This document shows positions 1,416-11,260 of a stretch of 13,756 bases of DNA, one piece after another. This DNA comes from a virus. Numbering within the stretch: the first letter of the stretch is position 1; every line of letters begins with the position of its first letter. The notes beneath the pieces are model-generated. The model was not told where the DNA came from, did no database searches, and saw only the letters and a program-made list of their open reading frames with translations. The stretch lies in UHGV virus genome UHGV-0099327, one strand, 5' to 3'. A program made the position numbers and the translations under genes.

Positions 1416-1767
1416 AAATTTATATTATCTAATTTGAACAGCATCAAGTTGATGAATCGGACTAAGCAGATATGTAATTAACACCATCAGCTTAGTCTAC
1501 ATATAGCTTGTTATAATTTTTTACGACTCAACGAAGTCTTGTTAGGATAATGTAAACAAATCCGTTTTTTAGATGTTAGTAATATTAGCAATGTTCATCT
1601 TAGAATGTGATATCGAAGGAAACTCGAAAATGATAATAGCTTTACACTATTGAGAAAATTTGGTTGAGGCTTCAAAATAGAGCATTCATACGTGATCAAT
1701 AGCCAGACTAAGCAAGCAACAGCTAACCCCCGTAACGTACTGATTAAATTGATAATTGAAGGTGCAT

Positions 1768-2055
1768 ATGTTAAAAGTTACTGGTCTTGATAAGCTTCAG
1801 AAAGAACTCAAGGATGCAAAGCGTATACTGAGTGAGCTGGATGGCGAGCTAGGAGTCGTAAAGTTTAACCCTAACGACCCTGCTAGCATCGAGTCGGCAA
1901 TTCAAACAGTTAATCACATGATTGATGAACGCATTGGCGGATGTTCAACCAACTCCATAGTCGGCTCGCTTGCGCAGCAGATGAAGGAAACATACAGAGA
2001 AGGCATTCTTAAAAAAGCTGCCGAAGCCAGATTGACTTCAAGTGAGGATGAGTAA
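1768..2055 (+). CDS. hypothetical small protein (95 aa from ATG 1768), first gene of a two-gene operon with the TIR-like protein
   Basis: ORF with a GAAGGTG SD-like motif 3 nt before ATG 1768 (spacing short; the track starts at TTG 1756). Its stop overlaps the next gene's start (TAATG at 2053..2057). No family recognised. Confidence 0.5.
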   Translation: MLKVTGLDKLQKELKDAKRILSELDGELGVVKFNPNDPASIESAIQTVNHMIDERIGGCSTNSIVGSLAQQMKETYREGILKKAAEARLTSSEDE

Positions 2056-2951
2056 TGGCTCAAGATATTTTTTCTGAAATGAACAATGCTGTTCTGGATT
2101 TACAGGCTTCACAATACCAGACCTTTGAACGTCCACTCAAAAAGCTTGCTCAGCTTCTAAAACATTCCGATCTTGAATCATACAATGCAGACCTGACTGA
2201 AGGACTCAATCTTACAGAGTTTCTCGCAGAAAGTGAGAAGACTGGAGGAAGTATGGCTGGGAGTGCCCAGCTTGTCTGGCCAGATGATGCAAGAAAAACA
2301 CTAGGCCTTACATTACTTTTGATTTTTAAGTTAGCAGAAGATCCTAATTATGCAATCAACTTTGGACATCATTTTTTCTATTCCGGAAGTAAAGTTATAG
2401 CAGGCATTCATTCGATTACAGGACAACTTATCATTCCTTTCGTTAGAGATTACAAAAATTATGTTCAGTCTAAGGGAAGCACAGAAACTATGTTGAAGCC
2501 GCAGTTTTCGAACAAAGTTTTCATTGTTCATGGTCATGATGATGGCGCCCGTGAAACAGTCGCAAGGTTTCTTGAACGTATAGGTTTAGAAGCAATCATA
2601 TTACATGAGCAAGCTAATCAGGGACGAACTGTCATTGAGAAAGTTATAGCAAATAGTGATGTTGGATTTGCTGTTGTATTGCTAACACCAGATGATGAAG
2701 GTTGTGCTAAAGGAGGAATACCAGAACCAAGGGCAAGGCAGAATGTAATGCTAGAATTAGGATATTTTATCGGGCGTTTAGGCAGAGAGAAAGTATGTGC
2801 ACTAAAACGCGGCTCACTAGATATTCCAAGTGATTTTGCTGGGGTTGTTTGGGAAAATATGGATAGCAGTGGAGGCTGGAAGCAAGCACTCGCACGAGAA
2901 CTTGAAGCTGCTGGTCACAATATTGATTGGAATAAAGCAATGCGGAGTTGA
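2055..2951 (+). CDS. TIR-like domain protein (Cap12/PycTIR-type nucleotide-binding domain at C-terminus, uncharacterised N-terminal ~150 aa); candidate anti-phage effector
   Basis: 298-aa ORF with a GAGGA SD. The C-terminal half carries the motif series KVFIVHGHDDG (nt 2517..2546), AVVLLTPDDEG, RARQNVMLELGYFIGRLGREKVCAL and IPSDFAGVV. From memory this matches the bacterial TIR-like family found in CBASS Cap12 and Pycsar effectors. The N-terminal domain is not recognised. Confidence 0.6.
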   Translation: MAQDIFSEMNNAVLDLQASQYQTFERPLKKLAQLLKHSDLESYNADLTEGLNLTEFLAESEKTGGSMAGSAQLVWPDDARKTLGLTLLLIFKLAEDPNYAINFGHHFFYSGSKVIAGIHSITGQLIIPFVRDYKNYVQSKGSTETMLKPQFSNKVFIVHGHDDGARETVARFLERIGLEAIILHEQANQGRTVIEKVIANSDVGFAVVLLTPDDEGCAKGGIPEPRARQNVMLELGYFIGRLGREKVCALKRGSLDIPSDFAGVVWENMDSSGGWKQALARELEAAGHNIDWNKAMRS

Positions 2952-3163: not shown

Positions 3164-3288
3164 CTGCTGTGTGAAAATTCCAAATCAATTCAGTTCATCA
3201 TCGATAGACAGGACTGATTCCGGATGATTTTTCCGTTCAAGATAAATACAGTAATAAACCCTTGGGCCACTTGTGTAAGGAGAATAAA

Positions 3289-3810
3289 ATGGCACGTAAA
3301 ATTTACGTCAGTATGACTGATATGGCAAAACGTTATGGTTATACCCTTAACGCTATTAAATCATGGAGAGCAGAAGGACTTCCTTATTCAGATAATCCAG
3401 CAGGAATACCAGAAAACGAAGGCACTTTATGGATCGTTCAGAACAAAATTAATCCGATGCGCAATATGTCTGTTCGTGATGAATTCGAGAAAGAAAAACT
3501 TCGTGAACAGGTGGCGAAGGCTGACTTAGCAACTTATGCAGCGCAAGAAAAATCAGGTGAATTAATCCCTGTTGAGTTGGTGCAAGCTCAATTGAATCAG
3601 TTCTGTCAGTCTCTGAAAGATTCCATCAGGCTGATTCCGTCAAAACACGGTATCGAAATCATGGAGTCTGCTAATGATATCCAGGAGCTGAAAGAAAAAC
3701 TCAAAGAGATTTTCAACAGAACATTGAATGAACTTGGTGAGTCGTTCGAACAAGACTTCGAACACGTTGACAAACCAGAAGAGAAAGAAGATAGTGAAAT
3801 TGAACTTTAA
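3289..3810 (+). CDS. terS: terminase small subunit, lambda Nu1-like (N-terminal winged HTH)
   Basis: ATG at 3289 with an AAGGAG SD 6 nt upstream. The N-terminus (SMTDMAKRYGYTLNAIKSWRAEGLP) resembles the lambda Nu1 HTH (KKQLADIFGASIRTIQNWQEQGMP), followed by a similar EKEKLREQV acidic/coiled segment. An intrinsic terminator follows immediately. Confidence 0.6.
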   Translation: MARKIYVSMTDMAKRYGYTLNAIKSWRAEGLPYSDNPAGIPENEGTLWIVQNKINPMRNMSVRDEFEKEKLREQVAKADLATYAAQEKSGELIPVELVQAQLNQFCQSLKDSIRLIPSKHGIEIMESANDIQELKEKLKEIFNRTLNELGESFEQDFEHVDKPEEKEDSEIEL

Positions 3811-3916: not shown

Positions 3917-4129
3917 TCATCGTGTTGCTCCTTTAAAGATTTGTTTCTGACGATTAATGAACATTCTTTCCTGCTTGAAATAGCCTGCTTCAATTTCGAC
4001 TGACTCTGTTAGATGTTGCTTAGGGTATTTTTCGCGACTAGCGCAATGTACATTTTTTCGTTGTAACATAAAACTGATTTTCACATAATCGCGCTTGCAA
4101 ATTACACACTTGTAATCATGGCCTGTCAT
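3917..4129 (-). CDS. hypothetical small Cys/His-containing protein (70 aa) immediately downstream of the retron RT
   Basis: ATG at 4129..4127 is preceded by a strong AAAGGAG SD at 6-nt spacing. The product contains CVIC ... HC, a possible metal-binding motif. It sits 187 bp downstream of the RT gene on the same strand and is followed by the hairpin at 3809..3835. Confidence 0.5.
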   Translation of the reverse strand: MTGHDYKCVICKRDYVKISFMLQRKNVHCASREKYPKQHLTESVEIEAGYFKQERMFINRQKQIFKGATR

Positions 4130-4316
4130 ATATACTCCTTTGTAAAACTATATTTATAGCCTCCATAACATTACAAAAGAATGATATTTTTAATTTGAGG
4201 TGTCGTCCAAATATGATTATATTCCAAAGTGACATTAATGAATATTGTCCCGACTACGGAATAGGGATTAAAATAAACCGTAACCGGGAAATATATTTAT
4301 TATCCATTTTTAACCA

Positions 4317-6086
4317 TCATGGATAGTACAAATTTTTAAAGTGATTATTAATATCAACCATAGCATCAAGAATTGGTTTGAACAATGAAAAATCTATAGT
4401 CTGTCTATTTTCTCTGATAATATTGTTGGCAAACCTGTCTTTTCCAAAAGTAGTAGTGCTATCATGATTATTACTTTTATCAAAGGATTTACCGTTAATT
4501 GTCTTTGTCAGAACTTCATCTTTGAAAAAGTCTTCCATGCACGATTGTTTATCACCAGCCAATAGTGGAGTTAACAATACGTAGAGGTTATTCTCTAAAT
4601 GTAAAAATTTATGTTTTCTTACGTCCTCTGATTTTCTAGGCAGGTGAGAATATTCTTTGATTATATTATTAATAAAATCAGATGGCCCAGTGTCATTATC
4701 CAAAACAATTATTACTGGATTTTTAGGCGGTTGTCTTTCAAATTTCTTGCATTGTTCTCTATGCCTTCTAAAGAATCTTACATAGTCAGCAGCCCCACCG
4801 TAGAGGTCTAAAAAATATTCCTTTTTTGCGTTTGTTTTGAATAACGTAATATTTAAAATTCTATTCTTTGTTCTATCGTCAACTCTAACCAGAGCAGGAT
4901 AACTTAAATACAAAGAATCAATTGCACATTTCAAATAAATTGGATCTGTTTTACCTTCTGTCAAAACTGTAGGCTTTATATTCCCATAAAAATACTTATA
5001 ATGAAGAAAGTTACTGAATGCTGTCTCTCTTGAATTCAATTTGAGAGTAAAATTAATTCCAGTTTTCTTTAGCACATATTTTTCTGGGAGTGTATGTTTT
5101 TTAGCGTTAATGTTATTATACTTATCAAGCATATCAATATAAACGAAGCGGCCTTCAAGTTCATTTAGAGTACCTTTTCGCGGTTTTCCACTAATATCCA
5201 AAAGGGTAAAATCCCCTTCTTTATAAAGTGCATGCGCCATAGCTCTGGTTTTTTTAATATAATCTTTATTGACATTTATTTTTTTGTTTACGGTTAAACC
5301 TGTTACTTCCTGCCTTGATGTATGCCGCAATATTCTGGTCTTATTATTATTAATTTTAAATCCAGCTTTTTCAATTTCATTAACTAACAATGGTCCTAAC
5401 TCGTTAGAATTCTCATTTATAACAATTGAGTCAGGAAACTGATTTTTGTTAGTTGAGAATGTTATATCATCTGCATATCGACTATAACTGCATCCATTAG
5501 AAAGTGCCAACTTTGACAATCTAATATCTAAAATATTACATATAAGATTGCTTATTACAGGAGAGCAAGGACTTCCTTGCGGAAGTTTTCCATCATAGCA
5601 AGCTATCTGCGCAATTATAGTTGCTATTGATGGGTGCAAATTAAAATATTGATTCGCGATAAAATAACCACGGACCCTACCGAAATTAAATGTAGGGAAA
5701 AAATCCTCAAGATCAATATTTAAAACATTGGTTTTATTTCTATGTCTTTCTGCATTTGTTATTATTGTTTTATTTTTCTCAAATCCATGAGATAAGCTAG
5801 GGGTGATATTATTTGTTTTCCATATTTCGCTCTGACAAACATACAATAAATCTGATAAACGCCTTTGTATGTCTTTTAGTTTTTCAGTAGGCGCAAATAT
5901 CTCTCTGTCACCTCCAGACTTCTTTTTTATAATAAATCTTTCATATTGATGCTCAGGTCGTATTCTGTACAGGACATTAGTAAGAAAAGAAACTTTAATT
6001 TGAAGTAAGCGTGCAAACTCAAATTTGGTCTTGCATGACTTGAGTCTTTCTAAGTAGGAGGGAGTGAACATAATAGTAAATTCCAT
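4317..6086 (-). CDS. retron reverse transcriptase fused to a C-terminal TOPRIM (OLD-nuclease-like) domain, Ec67-type
   Basis: 589-aa ORF carrying RT motifs: KKSGGDREI (aa 55..63), NIDLEDFF (motif A, Asp125), QGSPCSPVISN, and YADD (aa 204..207, nt 5477..5466). The C-terminal region has TOPRIM-like TEGKTD and VLDNDTG motifs. Size and motif order match my recollection of the Ec67 RT (about 586 aa). A retron-like ncRNA lies directly upstream. Confidence 0.9.
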   Translation of the reverse strand: MEFTIMFTPSYLERLKSCKTKFEFARLLQIKVSFLTNVLYRIRPEHQYERFIIKKKSGGDREIFAPTEKLKDIQRRLSDLLYVCQSEIWKTNNITPSLSHGFEKNKTIITNAERHRNKTNVLNIDLEDFFPTFNFGRVRGYFIANQYFNLHPSIATIIAQIACYDGKLPQGSPCSPVISNLICNILDIRLSKLALSNGCSYSRYADDITFSTNKNQFPDSIVINENSNELGPLLVNEIEKAGFKINNNKTRILRHTSRQEVTGLTVNKKINVNKDYIKKTRAMAHALYKEGDFTLLDISGKPRKGTLNELEGRFVYIDMLDKYNNINAKKHTLPEKYVLKKTGINFTLKLNSRETAFSNFLHYKYFYGNIKPTVLTEGKTDPIYLKCAIDSLYLSYPALVRVDDRTKNRILNITLFKTNAKKEYFLDLYGGAADYVRFFRRHREQCKKFERQPPKNPVIIVLDNDTGPSDFINNIIKEYSHLPRKSEDVRKHKFLHLENNLYVLLTPLLAGDKQSCMEDFFKDEVLTKTINGKSFDKSNNHDSTTTFGKDRFANNIIRENRQTIDFSLFKPILDAMVDINNHFKNLYYP

Positions 6087-6102
6087 TATTAATTATGTTA
6101 TT

Positions 6103-6231
6103 GCACATGCAGGCACTCTTACGCATTTCAAAGTGACGCCCAAGAAGATCCGACGTCCGTCAGAGGCGAATACTGCCGACCTTTTAATCACTGATTGCGA
6201 TACCACAACCAACAAATCTACCTGCATGTGC
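6103..6231 (-). ncRNA. msr-msd: retron msr-msd non-coding RNA (template for msDNA), bounded by 11-bp inverted repeats a1/a2
   Basis: Exact inverted repeat GCACATGCAGG (6103..6113) and CCTGCATGTGC (6221..6231) flanks about 107 nt, immediately 5' of the RT start on the minus strand. This is the canonical a1-msr-msd-a2-RT layout. The 5' part of the minus-strand segment (AGATTTGTTGGTTGTGGTATCGCAATCAGTG) resembles my unverified recollection of the Ec67 msr. The only ORF here (6064..6249) is implausible. Exact ends are uncertain. Confidence 0.6.
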
Positions 6232-6516
6232 CTTGCTAATTTATCATAGTTAACAATCAAAACAAGCACTTTTGAAAATGGTTGTATCTTATTGATTAAC
6301 TAATCATGGTCAAAGCCGAACATTCCTCGTGAAGATTGTTAGAATTTGAGATCTTTACGAGCACTTAACAGACTGTCAGATTCAGTCATGGAGCAAGTTG
6401 AATGCAATGTTATCATGTATCACTTTTTCTTTTTCGTCGTTAAGATGGTTCATAAAACTTACCATTAAGTCGATTGATAACTAGTAATTACATCTGTAGG
6501 TTCTCTTGATGATTTG

Positions 6517-7257
6517 TCAGAGGGCATTTGAGCTAAATAAAGTTGATTCGACGAGTTCAATTGCTTCATCTTCGATAGTTGATTTGTCCATTGTTTTGGT
6601 CGGCTCAGAAATATCAATTTTCACAATTACAATCTCGTCATCAAAAGATAGTTTTTCACCCCTTCTTTCTTTACGTAAAACGCTGTTCTCTTTGCTGAGT
6701 TCAGCGTTTTTCCTTTCTAACTCTGCGACTCTTTTCATCAAATCTTCCATTTTGGAATTCACAACATCTAGTTTCTGCTCAGTCGGAAATTCAATACTTT
6801 CGATGATTTCAATAAATTCACCAGTATACATCTGAACAAACTGCTCGGTGTCTTTGATCTTCTGCATTCTTAGATCTGAACAGAAAGCTTTCCACGAGTT
6901 CTTTTTACCGTTAATTTCACAAGCAACGATAACAGCATTATCGGTTGTATAAGCAACGATTGCAGGCAGATTATTAACTTCGGTCGTACCGATTTCGAAG
7001 CTATGCATATTTTTTACAGTCACAGCATTTTCAATCTTCTGTAACATCTTAGCTCGAACATTACGATGAATATCTATAGCTTTAACAAGAGCTTTCAGGC
7101 TGTTTTTGTTATTGGTCATTCTATTAACTTTGATAATATTTCTGTTCAGGCTTGCTTTAACTGTTCTGTCTAGATTTTCGAAGACTGCAAATTTGAAATT
7201 CAATTTATTTGCCTTTATTGATTGGTTGAGTTCTGATATTACGTTTTTTGCAAGCAT
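6517..7257 (-). CDS. hypothetical protein (246 aa) with C-terminal coiled-coil-like segment
   Basis: Long ORF with phage-like codon usage. No SD before ATG 7257. The 5' 53 nt overlap the upstream HTH ORF in a different frame. C-terminal region (KMEDLMKRVAELERKNAELSKENSVLRKERR) is heptad-like. Family not recognised. Confidence 0.5.
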   Translation of the reverse strand: MLAKNVISELNQSIKANKLNFKFAVFENLDRTVKASLNRNIIKVNRMTNNKNSLKALVKAIDIHRNVRAKMLQKIENAVTVKNMHSFEIGTTEVNNLPAIVAYTTDNAVIVACEINGKKNSWKAFCSDLRMQKIKDTEQFVQMYTGEFIEIIESIEFPTEQKLDVVNSKMEDLMKRVAELERKNAELSKENSVLRKERRGEKLSFDDEIVIVKIDISEPTKTMDKSTIEDEAIELVESTLFSSNAL

Positions 7258-7363
7258 TATACATCGTTGCTTTATTCATTTGTTTAGATTCTGCAATTTG
7301 CTGAAATGTCTCACCAGAGTCTAAGCGAGATTCAATTTCGAATTTGTTAGGTATAAATTTCAT
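7205..7363 (-). CDS. small HTH-like protein (52 aa from Met at 7363); possibly the N-terminal part of a frameshifted larger gene
   Basis: ORF track entry 7205..7399. I prefer the internal ATG at 7363 because the terminator hairpin at 7394..7413 overlaps the longer version. The segment SGETFQQIAESKQMNKATMYNACKK looks like a helix-turn-helix. No convincing SD. Confidence 0.3.
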   Translation of the reverse strand: MKFIPNKFEIESRLDSGETFQQIAESKQMNKATMYNACKKRNIRTQPINKGK

Positions 7364-7393
7364 GGGGTTGCCTTTTTTATTGAATTGAAAAAT

Positions 7394-7419
7394 AAGCACT
7401 CCGAAGAGTGCTTTAAACT
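7394..7419 (-). terminator. intrinsic terminator on minus strand (8-bp stem, UUCG tetraloop, U-tract)
   Basis: The + strand AAGCACTC-CGAA-GAGTGCTT at 7394..7413 reads on the minus strand as AAGCACUC-UUCG-GAGUGCUU followed by AUUUUUCAAUUC. Confidence 0.45.
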
Positions 7420-7619
7420 TAAGGAATTTTTAAATGAACTAAGCTAATTGCTTATATCTTATTTTATGACGGATAAAGTCAGTAGTAAACAAACGAGAGA
7501 AAATAACGAGGAAGAAGAAACTCTCTGTGTTCATACTAATATTTATATAGTTCACCGAAAGTGTAAACAAAGTCCGAAAAATAATTTAGTGAAAAGCAGG
7601 TGCATTGATGCACATCAAA

Positions 7620-7643
7620 ACGCATCGATAACGCATCGATGCG
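7620..7643. repeat. tandem direct repeat ACGCATCGATA/ACGCATCGATG, the second copy lying within a perfect 12-bp palindrome CGCATCGATGCG; adjacent TGCAT-tg-ATGCA inverted repeat at 7601..7612
   Basis: Read directly from the sequence: two 11-nt copies at 7620..7630 and 7631..7641, and the palindrome at 7632..7643. Operator-like architecture in a stretch with no convincing ORF. Confidence 0.4.
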
Positions 7644-7762
7644 ACTCGGAGAAGTGCATGGACCCTAGAAAAAATCGCCCTATAAGAACAATTGGATAAA
7701 GATGAACTGGAAGGATATAGAAGCAGTACAAAACCTGGAAAACATAGCGAAGCGAGCAGATT

Positions 7763-7888
7763 GCGCGAAGCGCGGGCGAAGCCCTAATTGATAAACATTA
7801 GCGCGAAGCGCGACAGATAACACTATCGAACTTGATTACTAGCTACTGATTAGATGTTTCTAGATAAAGATTATTAGCGCTTCGCGCG
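7763..7888. repeat. cluster of GC-rich mini-hairpin repeats (GCGC-GAA-GCGC, GGGC-GAA-GCCC, GCGC-TTC-GCGC) embedded in AT-rich non-coding DNA
   Basis: GCGCGAAGCGCG at 7763..7774 and 7801..7812, GGGCGAAGCCC at 7774..7784, and the inverted version GCGCTTCGCGCG at 7877..7888. Copies two and three share the 5' flank ATTAGCGC. These are GCGAAGC-type hairpins, known to be unusually stable as DNA. Confidence 0.5.
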
Positions 7889-8350
7889 TTCGCTACGCTC
7901 ACAATATTATTTTTCAGATCTGGATAATAATGATTACTGGATAACTGCATTATACTGTTCGTCTGACAATCAATAAACATAACGATCGATAATTAATTGA
8001 AATAACGTTAATGAGTTCTCCTTCGCTATCGCTACGTCGAACGGGCAAGCCCTATCTTTGATGATAGTAATGATTGACTGCTACATCATCCCTCCTCGCT
8101 TCTCCCTGCTTCTACTGACCTAATGATACTCCAAGTCAATTCCCTGTTATCAAGTTCACCTGATGCTTCCTGCTTCGTTATCGACCTTATTGCTTTTGAC
8201 TCTACGCTTTCAGCTTCGCAGGAAGTACGCCCTGCTGTTTGCAGATCGTTCTAAAGAACTGAGTAATCAAGTTCTCAACTATTTGATTCCTTGCGCCCCA
8301 AAGATGCCTCCAGTATCTGTGGTTTACAATCTACTCATTTGAAATTCAAT

Positions 8351-8378
8351 AAAAAAGGGAGCACTAAGCTCCCTTTTG
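8351..8378. terminator. intrinsic terminator hairpin (GGGAGC-ACTAA-GCTCCC) flanked by A-run and T-run, probably bidirectional
   Basis: 6-bp GC-rich stem at 8357..8362 and 8368..8373, with AAAAAA upstream and TTTT downstream. It lies immediately 3' of the 59-aa minus-strand gene, whose stop is at 8379..8381. Confidence 0.55.
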
Positions 8379-8558
8379 TCATTTCAGATCAAGCACTAAT
8401 GCTTGTTCAAGTTTTTTCTCAAGCAGAGTGTTTAATCCACTTTCGAAAAATTCAATCGCTTGAACGTCTGAGTCTGTTTTTAAGCGAACAGCGGCATCGT
8501 CAACTGTTAACTCTTCGGTCTTAACATCACCGTTTTTATAAACCACATTAGCAATCAT
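8379..8558 (-). CDS. hypothetical small protein (59 aa), not in the supplied ORF track
   Basis: My own translation of the minus strand: AAAGGAGAAAGC-ATG (ATG at 8558..8556) opens a 59-codon frame, MIANVVYKNGDVKTEELTVDDAAVRLKTDSDVQAIEFFESGLNTLLEKKLEQALVLDLK, ending TGA at 8381..8379 and followed directly by the terminator. Strong SD with ideal spacing. Confidence 0.5.
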   Translation of the reverse strand: MIANVVYKNGDVKTEELTVDDAAVRLKTDSDVQAIEFFESGLNTLLEKKLEQALVLDLK

Positions 8559-8796
8559 GCTTTCTCCTTTGTTGCTAAAAAATAATAACCGAATGATATC
8601 ACTTGTTCAATTTTTCTTTCAATCAAATAAGTATCCGATGAATAGTCGGCTCTCTAAACTAGCAGGTATGAAATAGTTCCTTAATTCTGAACTTCCTCAC
8701 TTTGCTTCCTATTTAATATTGCAATTTTAAATCTAGTGTAATTAATTTAGCTACAAACTTGCATTTATTATACATTTAAAAAATCGCCTCCATTCG

Positions 8797-9231
8797 TTAG
8801 GCATTCTCAGTTTCACTCATTTCTCCTTTAGTGCTATTCACACAGCGAAGAAACTGATCCCTCTGATACGCGGCAGTTTTGTCTGACATCTGTTTTTTGA
8901 ATAACTCAAAATCCCCCTCTGTACGTTTAAAAATAATCATGCTAATCGCAGATGGTTTTTTATTAGCCGATTTGCTAGCAAGAAGTTTTTCGATGTTATC
9001 GAATCCGAAAGCCTGATTCACGATTCGTTGTGCTTCAACAGCATCGACAACTTCAACCGTATTTTCAGCTTTAACTTCTTCAACAACTGTATATTCCTCG
9101 ATGTTAGCTTTAACACGACGAACAACAGAACGAGGAACATCGTATTTTTCAGCAAGCTTACTCTCTGACATATCAGTACCAGCGTTTAATTCAGAAGCAA
9201 TTCGGTTTTCAACAGTCAGTTCAGTTTTCAT
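8797..9231 (-). CDS. hypothetical HTH-containing protein (144 aa from Met at 9231), divergent from terL
   Basis: The internal ATG at 9231..9229 is preceded by AGGAGA, whereas the track start at 9288 has no SD. The N-terminal segment SESKLAEKYDVPRSVVRRV looks like a helix-turn-helix. C-terminal part not recognised. Confidence 0.55.
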   Translation of the reverse strand: MKTELTVENRIASELNAGTDMSESKLAEKYDVPRSVVRRVKANIEEYTVVEEVKAENTVEVVDAVEAQRIVNQAFGFDNIEKLLASKSANKKPSAISMIIFKRTEGDFELFKKQMSDKTAAYQRDQFLRCVNSTKGEMSETENA

Positions 9232-9376: not shown

Positions 9377-11260
9377 ATGAAAAACTCAAATAAACTGAAA
9401 AGTATCTTACAGAATGCAAAGCGCTTTTTAATGCCACCTCCTGACTACACTCCGTCCGAGTGGGTCGAACAGTACCTGAAATTCCCTGATGGTCCTTATA
9501 CAGGGCAGCCGATGAAACTGTTTGAGTTTCAGAAAGGCATGATTGACGTCATTAAAGAACGTAAGAAGAAAATCGTCTTCGAGACTTCTGCCCAGATTGG
9601 CAAGACAACCATCTTGAACGGAATTCTGTTCTATAAGTCTGCTACTGATCCCGGTAACGCTGGTGTCTTGCAGTCAACCGGTAAAGAGACGACTCAATGG
9701 CTATCAGGCAAGATTCGCCCAATGATTGACGAATCGGAAGAAATGCAACGAATCGTCACCGACAAGAACGACAGAAACGCAGTGAATAACACCAGTCAAA
9801 TTCAGCTACGTGCTGGAGGCTTTTGGTATTTCATGTCGCTCAATAGCCCTTCTCACTTACGCGGTAAAACTCTTCCGCTGATGTTGCTTGATGAAGTTGA
9901 CGCAGTTGAAACAGACACAGAAGAAGGCAACCCGATTATCATCGCGGAACAACGTGCTACGACGTTCGGTGAAGACGCTCGTGTTTTCATTAGCTCGACG
10001 CCTACAAGTAAATACGGTGCTATCCACACGCAGTATGAAGCATCCGACAAGCGCAAGTATCATGTTCCCTGTCCTACATGTGGTCATAAGCACGAACTGA
10101 CGTGGGAGAATATCAAATTCGACTGGGTAAAAATCGATGGTAAATCATTACCTGATCCTAACTCTGCCAGAATTGAATGTCCTGAATGTCATCACGCTTT
10201 CTCTGAAGGCGACCGAGCACGAGCAATTAAACAAGGTGAATGGATTATTCATCAACCTGAAAGTCGAATTGCTGGATTCCACGTAAGTCGTTTATACAGC
10301 CCAATGAGTTCTATCAAATCAGTTGTTGAAGACTATAAGCAAGCATGGCAAACGTTCAGCTTGTCAACGTTTTATAACACTGTTCTTGGTCTACCGTTTG
10401 ATGATTTAAACGAAGACATTGAGGTTAGTAAATTAGAAACACTCAAGACGAATATCGGCATCAGCAATATACCAGAAGACACGTTGTTTTTAACCGCTGG
10501 GGTTGACCAACAGCAAGACCGTTTAGAAGTAACCTTGATGGGTCACAACGAACGAACCGTTTATATTCTTGCACATCGTAGCTTTATGACAATGAACGCT
10601 GAGGTTATCGATTCCCCTGCTTATAAAGAACTTCTTGCATACGTTAAAGCACCGTTCAGAACAGCTTTGGGAAGAAAGGTTCCTTTAGCGTGGGTGAACG
10701 TCGATAGCTCAAACGGTCGAGCAACTAAAACAATCTATCGTTTCTGCTCTCAGTGGACAAACCTGAAAGCAATTAAAGGTGCCAGCTCTGTTGATGCCCC
10801 TTATGTTCCAACGAAAATCACGAAAACCGGTGGTTATGAACTTTATATGATTGGTGTAAACCAAGGAAAAAACTTAGTTCGTGAACTGCTAAACAGAAGC
10901 GTGAAATCTGGAAATACACCAGTCAGAGTCGAAATCTCTGATGATGTTCCAGATGATTACTGCGAACAGCTTATGTCCGAAGAATTAAAACGCTCTGGTA
11001 ATACTGTTAGATGGGTTATTAAACAAGGCGGTGTTCGTAACGAAGGTCTTGACTGCTTTAACTACGGTTATTGCGCGCGTCTGCAAGTTCTAGAGAAAAT
11101 CAAATTTCACGAGTGGAGGAAACTCGCTGCTAAACCTGATATTGAAATGCCAGAAGAACAAAACGAAACAAATTCTCCTATTATTCAAACTCCTGAACCT
11201 CGTCGAAACATTATCAAACGAAACAGACCAGTTAATAAGCCTCGTGGTTTCGGATTATAA
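9377..11260 (+). CDS. terL: terminase large subunit, lambda GpA family
   Basis: 627-aa product with Walker A-like ETSAQIGKTT and Walker B-like LMLLDEVDAV. Blocks resemble lambda gpA: HVPCPTCGHKHEL ... CPECHH (Cys-rich), FHVSRLYSP, LTAGVDQQQDRLEVTLMG, IKGASS, GLDCFNYGYCA. Length is close to lambda gpA (about 641 aa). Confidence 0.9.
   Translation: MKNSNKLKSILQNAKRFLMPPPDYTPSEWVEQYLKFPDGPYTGQPMKLFEFQKGMIDVIKERKKKIVFETSAQIGKTTILNGILFYKSATDPGNAGVLQSTGKETTQWLSGKIRPMIDESEEMQRIVTDKNDRNAVNNTSQIQLRAGGFWYFMSLNSPSHLRGKTLPLMLLDEVDAVETDTEEGNPIIIAEQRATTFGEDARVFISSTPTSKYGAIHTQYEASDKRKYHVPCPTCGHKHELTWENIKFDWVKIDGKSLPDPNSARIECPECHHAFSEGDRARAIKQGEWIIHQPESRIAGFHVSRLYSPMSSIKSVVEDYKQAWQTFSLSTFYNTVLGLPFDDLNEDIEVSKLETLKTNIGISNIPEDTLFLTAGVDQQQDRLEVTLMGHNERTVYILAHRSFMTMNAEVIDSPAYKELLAYVKAPFRTALGRKVPLAWVNVDSSNGRATKTIYRFCSQWTNLKAIKGASSVDAPYVPTKITKTGGYELYMIGVNQGKNLVRELLNRSVKSGNTPVRVEISDDVPDDYCEQLMSEELKRSGNTVRWVIKQGGVRNEGLDCFNYGYCARLQVLEKIKFHEWRKLAAKPDIEMPEEQNETNSPIIQTPEPRRNIIKRNRPVNKPRGFGL

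What the first reader, a model, noticed from the sequence alone, without database searches (positions are those of the whole stretch)
6103..6231. Candidate msr-msd with a1/a2 inverted repeats and a divergent msd
GCACATGCAGG at 6103..6113 and its exact reverse complement at 6221..6231 enclose about 107 nt, about the right size for an Ec67-like ncRNA (msr and msd overlapping). The msr-proximal half resembles my recollection of Ec67 msr, while the msd-proximal half (including a GACGTC-centred imperfect palindrome near 6150) looks different. That pattern, conserved msr with variable msd, is typical of retrons and would mean a distinct msDNA.
Basis: partly seen in the sequence, partly recalled or inferred. 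Interest (0 to 1): 0.55.

Follow-up and report, generated by a model that had tools for sequence, protein, structure and literature searches.

The report
Ec67-family retron ncRNA, new msDNA
The inverted repeat really does frame the non-coding RNA (msr-msd) of a retron, an anti-phage reverse-transcriptase system of the well-studied Ec67/Eco2 family, here in a rare E. coli variant predicted to make a different ~64-nt single-stranded DNA; this is a routine new member of a known family.

Summary
GCACATGCAGG (6103-6113) and its exact reverse complement (6221-6231) are present. Read on the minus strand, they are the core of a 13-bp a1/a2 stem.

An 11-nt inverted repeat alone is not beyond chance: the window has 3 and about 1.3 are expected. 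Three other results make this one real:
- It lies 16 nt upstream of a 589-aa RT-Toprim ORF (6086-4317, minus strand). That ORF passes NCBIfam 'retron Ec67 family' (709 bits, cut-off 450) and is 50.6% identical to the Ec67/Eco2 protein.
- Its msr core (branching G, AUUU, single hairpin) is 90% identical to a published Eco2 ncRNA.
- Across 11 distinct family variants, a1/a2 is 100% paired, with compensatory changes at 5 of 13 pairs.

The msd centre is only 32% identical to Ec67, while both msd ends are conserved. By homology the msDNA equals + strand 6117-6180 (64 nt; 61 nt is the alternative).

RT (YADD) and Toprim (EGKTD, DND) catalytic residues are intact. The likely mechanism is therefore that of Eco2: msDNA cages the Toprim RNase until phage nucleases degrade it.

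The locus sits in a prophage-like element of E. coli MS 115-1 and 2021CK-01361. RefSeq names the RT there but leaves the ncRNA unannotated. Verdict: new member of a known kind, of modest interest.

The parts
6238..6246 (-). Putative extended -10 promoter element TGaTAAATT (TG at 6246-6245, hexamer TAAATT at 6243-6238). It would place the transcript start at or within a few nt of a1.
   Evidence: Inference. A TGnTAnnnT motif lies at the same distance upstream of a1 in all 11 ncRNA variants examined, although the surrounding sequence differs. It was not reported by the stricter two-hexamer scan, which instead listed TTGACC-16-TAAGAT at 6313-6286 on the minus strand.
6219..6231 (-). a1 arm of the ncRNA closing stem (RNA 5'-GCACAUGCAGGUA-3').
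   Evidence: Exact 11-nt inverted repeat plus G-U and A-U extension. 100% paired in 11 variants, with compensatory changes at 5 of 13 pairs.
6218..6218 (-). Predicted branching guanosine, which would prime msDNA synthesis from its 2'-OH. Equivalent to rG15 of Eco2.
   Evidence: It aligns with G15 of Eco2 in ...GG(C/U)A-G-AUUUGUUGG. G15 is the branching nucleotide in the Eco2 structures. The invariance of this column in my variant set is by construction of the search pattern.
6190..6213 (-). The single msr stem-loop. Nine pairs, 6212-6204 with 6199-6191, loop GUAU at 6203-6200. Equivalent to Eco2 rG20-rU42.
   Evidence: MFE fold and consensus fold, 100% paired in 11 variants, with one-sided changes only: G-C/G-U and U-G/U-A. 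The 5' arm was fixed by the search pattern.
6181..6189 (-). Single-stranded linker (GAUUAAAAG) between the msr hairpin and the predicted reverse-transcription stop. Equivalent to Eco2 ssRb G43-U51.
   Evidence: Same length (9 nt) as in Eco2, but only 3/9 identical. Eco2 assignments.
6117..6180 (-). msd, the template for msDNA. The predicted msDNA equals the + strand 6117-6180: 5'-TCTTACGCATTTCAAAGTGACGCCCAAGAAGATCCGACGTCCGTCAGAGGCGAATACTGCCGAC-3' (64 nt). If the stop is set by the GGCAG motif instead of by distance, it ends at 6177 (61 nt).
   Evidence: Positional homology with Eco2. Synthesis starts at the A two nt 5' of a2 (dT1) and stops at the invariant G ten nt 3' of the msr hairpin (Eco2 G52:dC67). 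The centre is 32% identical to Ec67; the ends are 71% and 78% identical.
6149..6164 (-). Small hairpin inside msd (UCUGAC-GGAC-GUCGGA) containing the GACGTC palindrome (6152-6157).
   Evidence: It lies at msDNA nt 33-48, roughly where Eco2 msDNA nt 29-50 form the three-way junction. That correspondence is an inference.
6103..6115 (-). a2 arm of the closing stem (RNA 5'-UGCCUGCAUGUGC-3'). 6116 is the unpaired G opposite the branching G.
4317..6086 (-). Retron RT-Toprim fusion gene, 589 aa from the first ATG. RefSeq starts it at the second ATG, 6071, giving 584 aa. Motifs: NAERH 111-115, YADD 204-207, VTG 261-263, Toprim EGKTD 377-381 and DND 463-465.
   Evidence: Pfam RVT_1 4e-23. PADLOC RT-Toprim_I-C 7e-216. 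NCBIfam NF038237 708.7 bits against a cut-off of 450. PDB Eco2 chains 9lm3/9i2f E = 5.5e-189. 50.6% identity to the Ec67 RT. Catalytic and msr-contact residues conserved.

Best explanation
6231-6103 on the minus strand is the msr-msd non-coding RNA gene of a type I-C (Ec67/Eco2-family) retron. Its single protein, an RT-Toprim fusion, is encoded 16 nt downstream (6086-4317).

Proposed mechanism, by analogy with Eco2:
1. The RNA is transcribed from a promoter just upstream of a1.
2. a1 and a2 pair, which presents the G at 6218.
3. The RT binds the msr hairpin and primes from the 2'-OH of that G.
4. It copies the msd from 6117 up to about 6180, yielding a branched RNA-DNA molecule with a DNA part of about 64 nt.
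5. The msDNA holds three RT-Toprim protomers together and cages the Toprim RNase.
6. When a phage nuclease degrades the msDNA, Toprim is released, cuts tRNAs, and translation stops.

Shown here: the repeat, the fold, homology of both RNA and protein, covariation in a1/a2, and intact catalytic motifs.

Inferred from Eco2 papers: the branch point, the msDNA ends, trimerisation, the trigger and the tRNA target.
For: - RNA: exact inverted repeat. The minus-strand fold is closed by a 13-bp a1/a2 stem, z = -3.8, against z = -1.8 for the plus strand.
- Homology: alignment to a published Eco2 ncRNA gives an msr core of 26/29 identical, with the G, AUUU, the hairpin and GAGUGCCUGCAUG conserved.
- Covariation: 11 distinct variants from E. 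coli genomes, IMG/VR and metagenomes keep a1/a2 100% paired, with double changes at 5 of 13 pairs. No slid register comes close, reaching only 23-43% paired.
- Protein: NF038237 at 708.7 bits against 450. PADLOC RT-Toprim_I-C, with the same two best models as the Ec67 RT itself. PDB Eco2 at 5.5e-189.
- Residues: the equivalents of YADD and of E374/D378/D460/D462 are all conserved, as are msr-contact residues F46, R56, K66, R70, K245, R247, S253 and H281. NAxxH and VTG are present.
- Annotation: RefSeq names the gene 'retron Ec67 family RNA-directed DNA polymerase/endonuclease' in the two identical genomes.
- Eco2 mechanism.
Against: - No experimental evidence for msDNA from this locus, and no paper on it was found.
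- The msDNA 3' end is ambiguous between 64 and 61 nt, because the linker before the stop site is only 3/9 identical to Eco2.
- Eco2's flipped U51 is a G here.
- The predicted msDNA monomer folds no better than shuffles (z = +0.94). The same is true of the Ec67 msDNA (z = +0.05).
- The RT is only 50.6% identical to Eco2 and the Toprim part 44%. Trigger and target could therefore differ.
- The invariance of the msr 5' arm in my variant set is partly imposed by the search pattern.
- Rfam has no model to test against.
Confidence: 0.92

Rival explanations
1. The inverted repeat is a chance match in AT-rich intergenic DNA with no RNA function.
For: An 11-nt perfect inverted repeat with a 20-200 nt loop is expected about 1.3 times per shuffled window. 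Two others occur, at 7763/7801 with 7877.
Against: The enclosed sequence is homologous to the Eco2 ncRNA. The repeat is kept through compensatory substitutions in relatives whose RTs are only about 50% identical. It sits directly upstream of a retron RT in every variant.
Confidence: 0.01
2. It is a decayed or inactive retron. The RNA and RT are recognisable relics carried by a defective prophage, and they no longer make msDNA or defend.
For: - The element is rare, found in 2 of 5426 complete E. coli genomes.
- It looks partly degraded in MS 115-1, where IS3 interrupts the large terminase gene.
- Relatives do decay: IS1 sits inside the msd in L004, and the RT is truncated in L003.
Against: - The 589-aa ORF is full length.
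- All tested catalytic and RNA-contact residues are intact.
- The ncRNA stem has no mismatch.
- Identical or 99.8% identical copies occur in two genomes, two IMG/VR contigs and a metagenome contig.
Confidence: 0.05
3. The hairpin at 6164-6149 followed by UCUUCUU is an intrinsic terminator or attenuator. On this view the region is mainly a regulatory leader controlling RT expression, not an msDNA template.
For: The terminator scan reports this site, with 0.1 expected per shuffle.
Against: - The T tract is weak: 5 T in 8, interrupted.
- The hairpin sequence is not conserved in relatives.
- The flanking msd ends match the Eco2 initiation and termination sites.
- A strong terminator would block the downstream RT.
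Confidence: 0.02

Closest known systems
Retron Ec67 / Retron-Eco2 (type I-C1; cryo-EM structures PDB 9I2F, 9I2G, 9S1F, 9LM3)
   Same: - Gene order: promoter, then a1-msr-msd-a2, then a single RT-Toprim gene.
- A 13-bp a1/a2 stem followed by G, AUUU and one msr hairpin, 26/29 identical across the G plus msr core.
- A 9-nt linker, then an invariant G at the stop position.
- A GA-G-UGCCUGCAUG initiation context.
- YADD, EGxxD and DxD motifs, and conserved msr-contact residues.
- The same best PADLOC and NCBIfam models.
   Different: - The protein is only 50.6% identical: RT part 55%, Toprim part 44%.
- The msd centre is unrelated (32%).
- The predicted msDNA is 64 (or 61) nt instead of 67.
- The msr loop is GUAU instead of AAU, and U51 is replaced by G.
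- a2 lies 16 nt from the start codon, against about 47 nt in the published Eco2 sequence.
- It sits in a prophage-like element with lambda-type gpA terminase and HK97-type head genes next to ybiT, whereas a P2-like prophage carries the related L003 variant.
The common E. coli Ec67-family retron next to dhaR (RT WP_000476153.1, e.g. ST131 strains; about 511 of 5426 complete genomes)
   Same: It is the closest relative found. RT is 72% identical at protein level and 73% at DNA level. The ncRNA is 84-86% identical. a1, the G and the msr core are 100% identical, and both msd ends are conserved.
   Different: The msd centre is 62% identical with indels. The genomic context differs: a chromosomal island beside an ABC-three-component system instead of a prophage. 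I found no paper describing its msDNA either.
Retrons of types XI (RT-protease) and XII (RT-TIR)
   Same: The RT domain is related (PADLOC 1e-99 to 4e-101 over the N-terminal 290-330 residues), and each is a single fusion-protein system.
   Different: The C-terminal effector here is Toprim, not protease or TIR. NF042941 scores 284 bits against a cut-off of 600.

Membership tests
Retron (general) | Reverse transcriptase with the retron-specific NAxxH (region X) and VTG (region Y) motifs and the YxDD catalytic site (defined in Mestre et al. 2020). | tested here: met
   NAERH 111-115, YADD 204-207, VTG 261-263. RVT_1 4e-23.
Retron (general) | A structured ncRNA gene adjacent to and co-oriented with the RT, closed by inverted repeats a1/a2. 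| tested here: met
   13-bp stem 6231-6219 / 6115-6103, 16 nt upstream of the RT ORF. 100% paired with 5 compensatory pairs in 11 variants.
Retron (general) | Conserved branching G immediately 3' of a1, with a 2'-5' RNA-DNA linkage. | tested here: inconclusive
   A G is present at 6218 in the position of Eco2 rG15. The 2'-5' bond cannot be tested from sequence.
Retron (general) | Production of multicopy single-stranded DNA. | not testable with these tools
   Requires expression and gel or sequencing analysis. Only a homology-based prediction is given.
Type I-C retron (Ec67/Eco2 family) | RT fused at its C-terminus to a Toprim domain with motif IV EGxxD and motif V DxD. DxE would indicate I-C2. 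| tested here: met
   EGKTD 377-381 and DND 463-465, aligned to Eco2 E374/D378/D460/D462. PADLOC RT-Toprim_I-C 7e-216. This excludes I-C2. I-C1 versus I-C3 was not resolved by a tree, but the best PADLOC models are the same as for the Ec67 RT.
Type I-C retron (Ec67/Eco2 family) | Score above the curated cut-off of NCBIfam NF038237 (retron_Ec67_fus). | tested here: met
   708.7 bits against a cut-off of 450, covering profile positions 1-572 of 572.
Type I-C retron (Ec67/Eco2 family) | msr with a single stem-loop homologous to Eco2 rG20-rU42. | tested here: met
   Architecture as described for Eco2.
Type I-C retron (Ec67/Eco2 family) | Single-protein system with no conserved accessory effector gene. 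| tested here: met
   Genes flanking the ncRNA-RT unit differ completely among the window, the dhaR-island locus and the P2-like locus.
Type I-C retron (Ec67/Eco2 family) | 3:3 RT-Toprim:msDNA complex, activation by phage nucleases (DenB, A1), and tRNA cleavage. | not testable with these tools
   Known for Eco2 only.
Retron Ec67 itself (same retron, same msDNA) | Near-identical RT and the msDNA-Ec67 sequence. | tested here: not met
   RT 50.6% identical. ncRNA 62% identical overall, msd centre 32%.

The most novel reading that the evidence does not exclude
Within the Ec67 family, the msr and both msd ends are held almost constant across RTs that have diverged to about 50% identity. The msd centre, which in Eco2 forms the three-way junction that cages the Toprim, is replaced freely. 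The most novel reading not excluded is that this centre is a swappable sensor cassette. It would set which phage nucleases or DNA-binding proteins trip the system, so this 64-nt msDNA would give a different trigger spectrum from Eco2. The near-identical msr might also let co-resident family members cross-prime.
Probability: 0.2. Interest if true: 0.5.

Novelty: new member of a known kind. Interest (0 to 1): 0.25.

Why it matters
- It adds an unannotated ncRNA and a predicted new msDNA to a family whose structure and mechanism were solved only in 2025-2026.
- With the other ten variants, it gives a natural series of same msr with different msd centre. That series could test how msDNA sequence governs caging of the Toprim RNase and trigger specificity, and which msd positions can be replaced when Eco2-type retrons are engineered.
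- It does not change any concept. RefSeq already names the RT, and the RNA is found by simple homology.

Tried and rejected
- Rfam at gathering thresholds over the whole window, and at E up to 10 over 6000-6350, gave no retron family, only two chance-level hits. Rfam appears to hold no model for this RNA, so the result is uninformative.
- megablast against the phage collection found nothing.
- The search for related loci on genome contigs with the single RT protein returned only three distant RTs (41-45% over the RT domain, in KSB1, Neomegalonema and Bacillota MAGs).
- A full-text search for the Eco2 msr string, for WP_000494974 and for 'MS 115-1' plus retron found no paper.
- No supplements are held for Mestre et al. 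2020.
- The retron census supplement contains the msr 15-mer GATTTGTTGGTTGTG only once, in the Eco2 entry. Line breaks in that file could hide other entries.
- Of the 53 viral-contig hits to the 16-mer, most were chance matches in unrelated DNA. They were filtered out by requiring the 3' arm of the hairpin.
- I looked for a long msDNA hairpin of the classical kind. The monomer fold is no better than shuffles, for this msDNA and for Ec67 alike, so I make no structural claim for the msd centre.
- The 61-aa GTG ORF on the + strand (6064-6249), which overlaps the RNA, was taken as spurious. It was not tested further.

Full report
**1. Observation**

The + strand reads GCACATGCAGG at 6103-6113 and CCTGCATGTGC at 6221-6231. 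This is an exact 11-nt inverted repeat with 107 nt between the arms (pair I4).

The repeat on its own is not statistically unusual. The 13.7-kb window contains three perfect inverted repeats of at least 11 nt with 20-200 nt loops. First-order Markov shuffles give 1.3 on average. The case for function therefore rests on other evidence.

**2. What surrounds it**

- A 589-aa ORF runs on the minus strand from 6086 to 4317, starting 16 nt beyond the 6103 arm.
- It has a reverse-transcriptase domain (Pfam RVT_1, 4e-23).
- It matches PADLOC RT-Toprim_I-C over its full length (7e-216).
- It scores 708.7 bits on NCBIfam NF038237 'retron Ec67 family RNA-directed DNA polymerase/endonuclease', where the cut-off is 450.
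- It matches the cryo-EM chains of retron Ec67/Eco2 (9lm3, 9i2f) at 5.5e-189.
- It is 50.6% identical to the Ec67 protein: RT part 55%, Toprim part 44%.
- The retron signatures are present: NAERH (111-115), YADD (204-207) and VTG (261-263), plus the Toprim motifs EGKTD (377-381) and DND (463-465). These align with Eco2 E374/D378/D460/D462, the residues whose mutation abolishes Eco2 RNase activity.
- DxD rather than DxE excludes subtype I-C2 as defined by Mestre et al..
- The two best PADLOC models are the same ones that the Ec67 protein hits best.

**3. The RNA**

The minus-strand RNA across 6240-6095 folds at -53.4 kcal/mol (z = -3.8; none of 200 shuffles as good). The fold has three main features:
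- a 13-bp closing stem, made of the 11-nt repeat plus a G-U and an A-U pair;
- a 9-bp hairpin, UUGGUUGUG-GUAU-CGCAAUCAG;
- smaller hairpins in the 3' half.

The plus strand folds much less well (-32.9 kcal/mol, z = -1.8). This fits the several G-U pairs that exist only on the minus strand.

I obtained a published Eco2 sequence from the supplement of an eLife paper. It agrees with every residue number quoted in the two Eco2 structure papers, including G15, A16-U19, G20-U42, G43-U51, G52-A62 and dC63-dC67.

Identity of the window to Ec67, by segment:

| Segment | Identity |
|---|---|
| a1 | 9/13 |
| Branching G plus msr core | 26/29 |
| Linker | 3/9 |
| Start of the template (RT stop end) | 12/17 |
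| msd centre | 13/41 (32%, chance level) |
| End of the template (initiation end) | 7/9 |
| G plus a2 | 12/14 |

One refinement applies: both msd ends are conserved and only the centre is replaced.

**4. Comparative evidence**

BLAST of the 156-nt region against 5426 complete E. coli genomes found it in 526:
- 2 at 99% identity or above (100% in the one listed);
- 511 at 80-90%, sampled rows being the variant next to dhaR, as in ST131;
- 13 at 60-80%.

No feature is annotated under any match.

Exact-pattern scans of IMG/VR and of metagenome contigs with the msr 5' arm gave further loci. After removing chance hits, 11 distinct full-length ncRNA variants remained, each followed by an RT-Toprim ORF. 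Those RTs are 47-72% identical to the window's.

In their alignment (A2), results for the two helices were:
- The a1/a2 helix is paired in 100% of cells.
- 5 of its 13 pairs show changes on both sides. Examples are G-C to A-U at columns 7/134, U-A to C-G at 12/129 and C-G to U-A at 16/125.
- Sliding the 3' partner by 1-3 columns drops pairing to 23-43%, with no double changes.
- a1 (except its last base) and a2 were not part of the search pattern, so this test is independent of how the loci were found.
- The msr hairpin is also 100% paired, but shows only one-sided changes. Its 5' arm was fixed by the pattern, so it adds less.

The pattern of states implies several independent substitution events, but the sequences are related, so the shuffle statistics are not probabilities.

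**5. Anatomy in window coordinates (minus strand)**

| Feature | Coordinates |
|---|---|
| a1 | 6231-6219 |
| Predicted branching G | 6218 |
| AUUU | 6217-6214 |
| msr stem-loop | 6213-6190 |
| Linker | 6189-6181 |
| msd template | 6180-6117 |
| Unpaired G | 6116 |
| a2 | 6115-6103 |

In Eco2, DNA synthesis starts opposite the A two nt 5' of a2 (dT1). It ends opposite G52, ten nt after the hairpin. That G is invariant in all 11 variants.

By position, the msDNA here is the + strand 6117-6180, 64 nt long. If the GGCAG motif rather than the distance sets the stop, it is 61 nt, ending at 6177.

As a monomer this DNA folds no better than shuffles (z = +0.94). The same holds for the Ec67 msDNA (z = +0.05). 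This is compatible with the cryo-EM finding that Eco2 msDNA does not form the textbook hairpin but a three-way junction between protomers.

The GACGTC palindrome (6152-6157) and its small hairpin fall at msDNA nt 33-48, roughly the region that forms that junction in Eco2 (nt 29-50). I did not test whether a junction can form here.

**6. Promoter**

All 11 variants have TGnTAnnnT ending 6-8 nt before a1, although the surrounding sequence differs. In the window this is TGATAAATT at 6246-6238.

It looks like an extended -10 element that would start the transcript at about a1. In Ec67 the same spacing puts the start at the residue numbered 1 in the structure papers. This is an inference.

The generic two-hexamer scan did not list it. 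That scan gave a weaker candidate at 6313-6286.

**7. Mechanism**

The most likely mechanism is that of Eco2:
1. The RT primes on the 2'-OH of the branching G and copies the msd.
2. The msr hairpin bridges neighbouring RT protomers.
3. The msDNA cages the Toprim domains of a trimer.
4. Phage nucleases (DenB or A1 for Eco2) degrade the msDNA.
5. The freed Toprim nicks tRNA acceptor stems, and translation stops.

Support from this window is indirect. All catalytic residues are conserved, and so are most residues reported to contact the msr: F46, R56, K66, R70, K245, R247, S253 and H281.

The double protein contact of the msr hairpin in the trimer may explain why the msr is 90-100% conserved while the proteins have drifted to 50% identity. 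This too is an inference.

Because the msd centre and the Toprim domain differ most from Eco2, the trigger and target are the least secure parts of the analogy.

**8. Context**

The window is identical over the 2084-bp retron segment (4317-6400) to E. coli MS 115-1 and 2021CK-01361. There the retron lies in a prophage-like element next to ybiT. That element encodes a serine recombinase, tail and lysozyme genes, a TIR protein, terminase, portal and an HK97-type protease.

Neighbouring genes are not shared with the dhaR-island variant or the P2-like variant. This fits a self-contained single-gene system.

**9. Novelty**

RefSeq already names the RT. The ncRNA is unannotated, and Rfam has no model for it. 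I found no paper on this locus.

It is a new member of a known kind: a diverged Ec67-family retron with a new predicted msDNA. A specialist would not be surprised. The modest value lies in the natural series of same msr with different msd.

Noticed in passing
window 7759-7888: Three copies of the GC-rich 11-mer GCGCGAAGCGC. Two are direct (7763, 7801) and one inverted (7877). Each is itself a GCGC-GAA-GCGC mini-hairpin. They lie in a 1.5-kb AT-rich stretch (about 7260-8800) with no ORF over about 83 aa, between the retron-side genes and the terminase genes. This could be an origin, packaging or operator region.
   Followed up: partly
window 1756-2951 (+): A 298-aa protein has a CAP12/Pycsar-type TIR domain (Pfam 4.8e-38; PADLOC candidate system PDC-S35, 1e-70). 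It is preceded by an overlapping 99-aa ORF with no family match. This is probably a second defence module in the same element.
   Followed up: partly
window 3262-3810 (+) and 9377-11260 (+): A small-terminase-like gene (phrog_57, 3e-21) is separated from the gpA-type large terminase by about 5.5 kb. That stretch holds mostly minus-strand cargo: the retron, a 246-aa gene and a GntR-like gene. It looks like an accessory island inserted between the packaging genes.
   Followed up: no
window 6517-7257 (-): A 246-aa ORF lies directly upstream of the retron on the same strand. It has no Pfam, NCBIfam or PADLOC match and only a marginal PHROG hit (3.6e-4). It is absent next to the other Ec67-family variants, so it is probably not part of the retron.
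   Followed up: partly
L001 15101-16221 (E. coli MS 115-1) versus window 9377-11260: In MS 115-1 an IS3 element splits the large terminase gene, which is intact in the window. The window therefore corresponds to the 2021CK-01361-type copy or a similar one.
   Followed up: no
L004 about 4110-4830 (E. coli CH4794): An IS1 element is inserted inside the msd of the dhaR-island Ec67-family retron, cutting the ncRNA after ...GGCGTCAC. This is a natural knock-out of the RNA with the RT gene left intact.
   Followed up: no
L003 4167-5923 (E. coli 2014C-3061, P2-like prophage): The RT-Toprim gene of this variant is split into a 500-aa ORF and a 73-aa ORF. The same variant is intact (585 aa) in IMG/VR loci L033 and L047.
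   Followed up: no
window 6064-6249 (+): A 61-aa GTG-initiated ORF on the opposite strand spans the whole ncRNA. It is presumably spurious.
   Followed up: no
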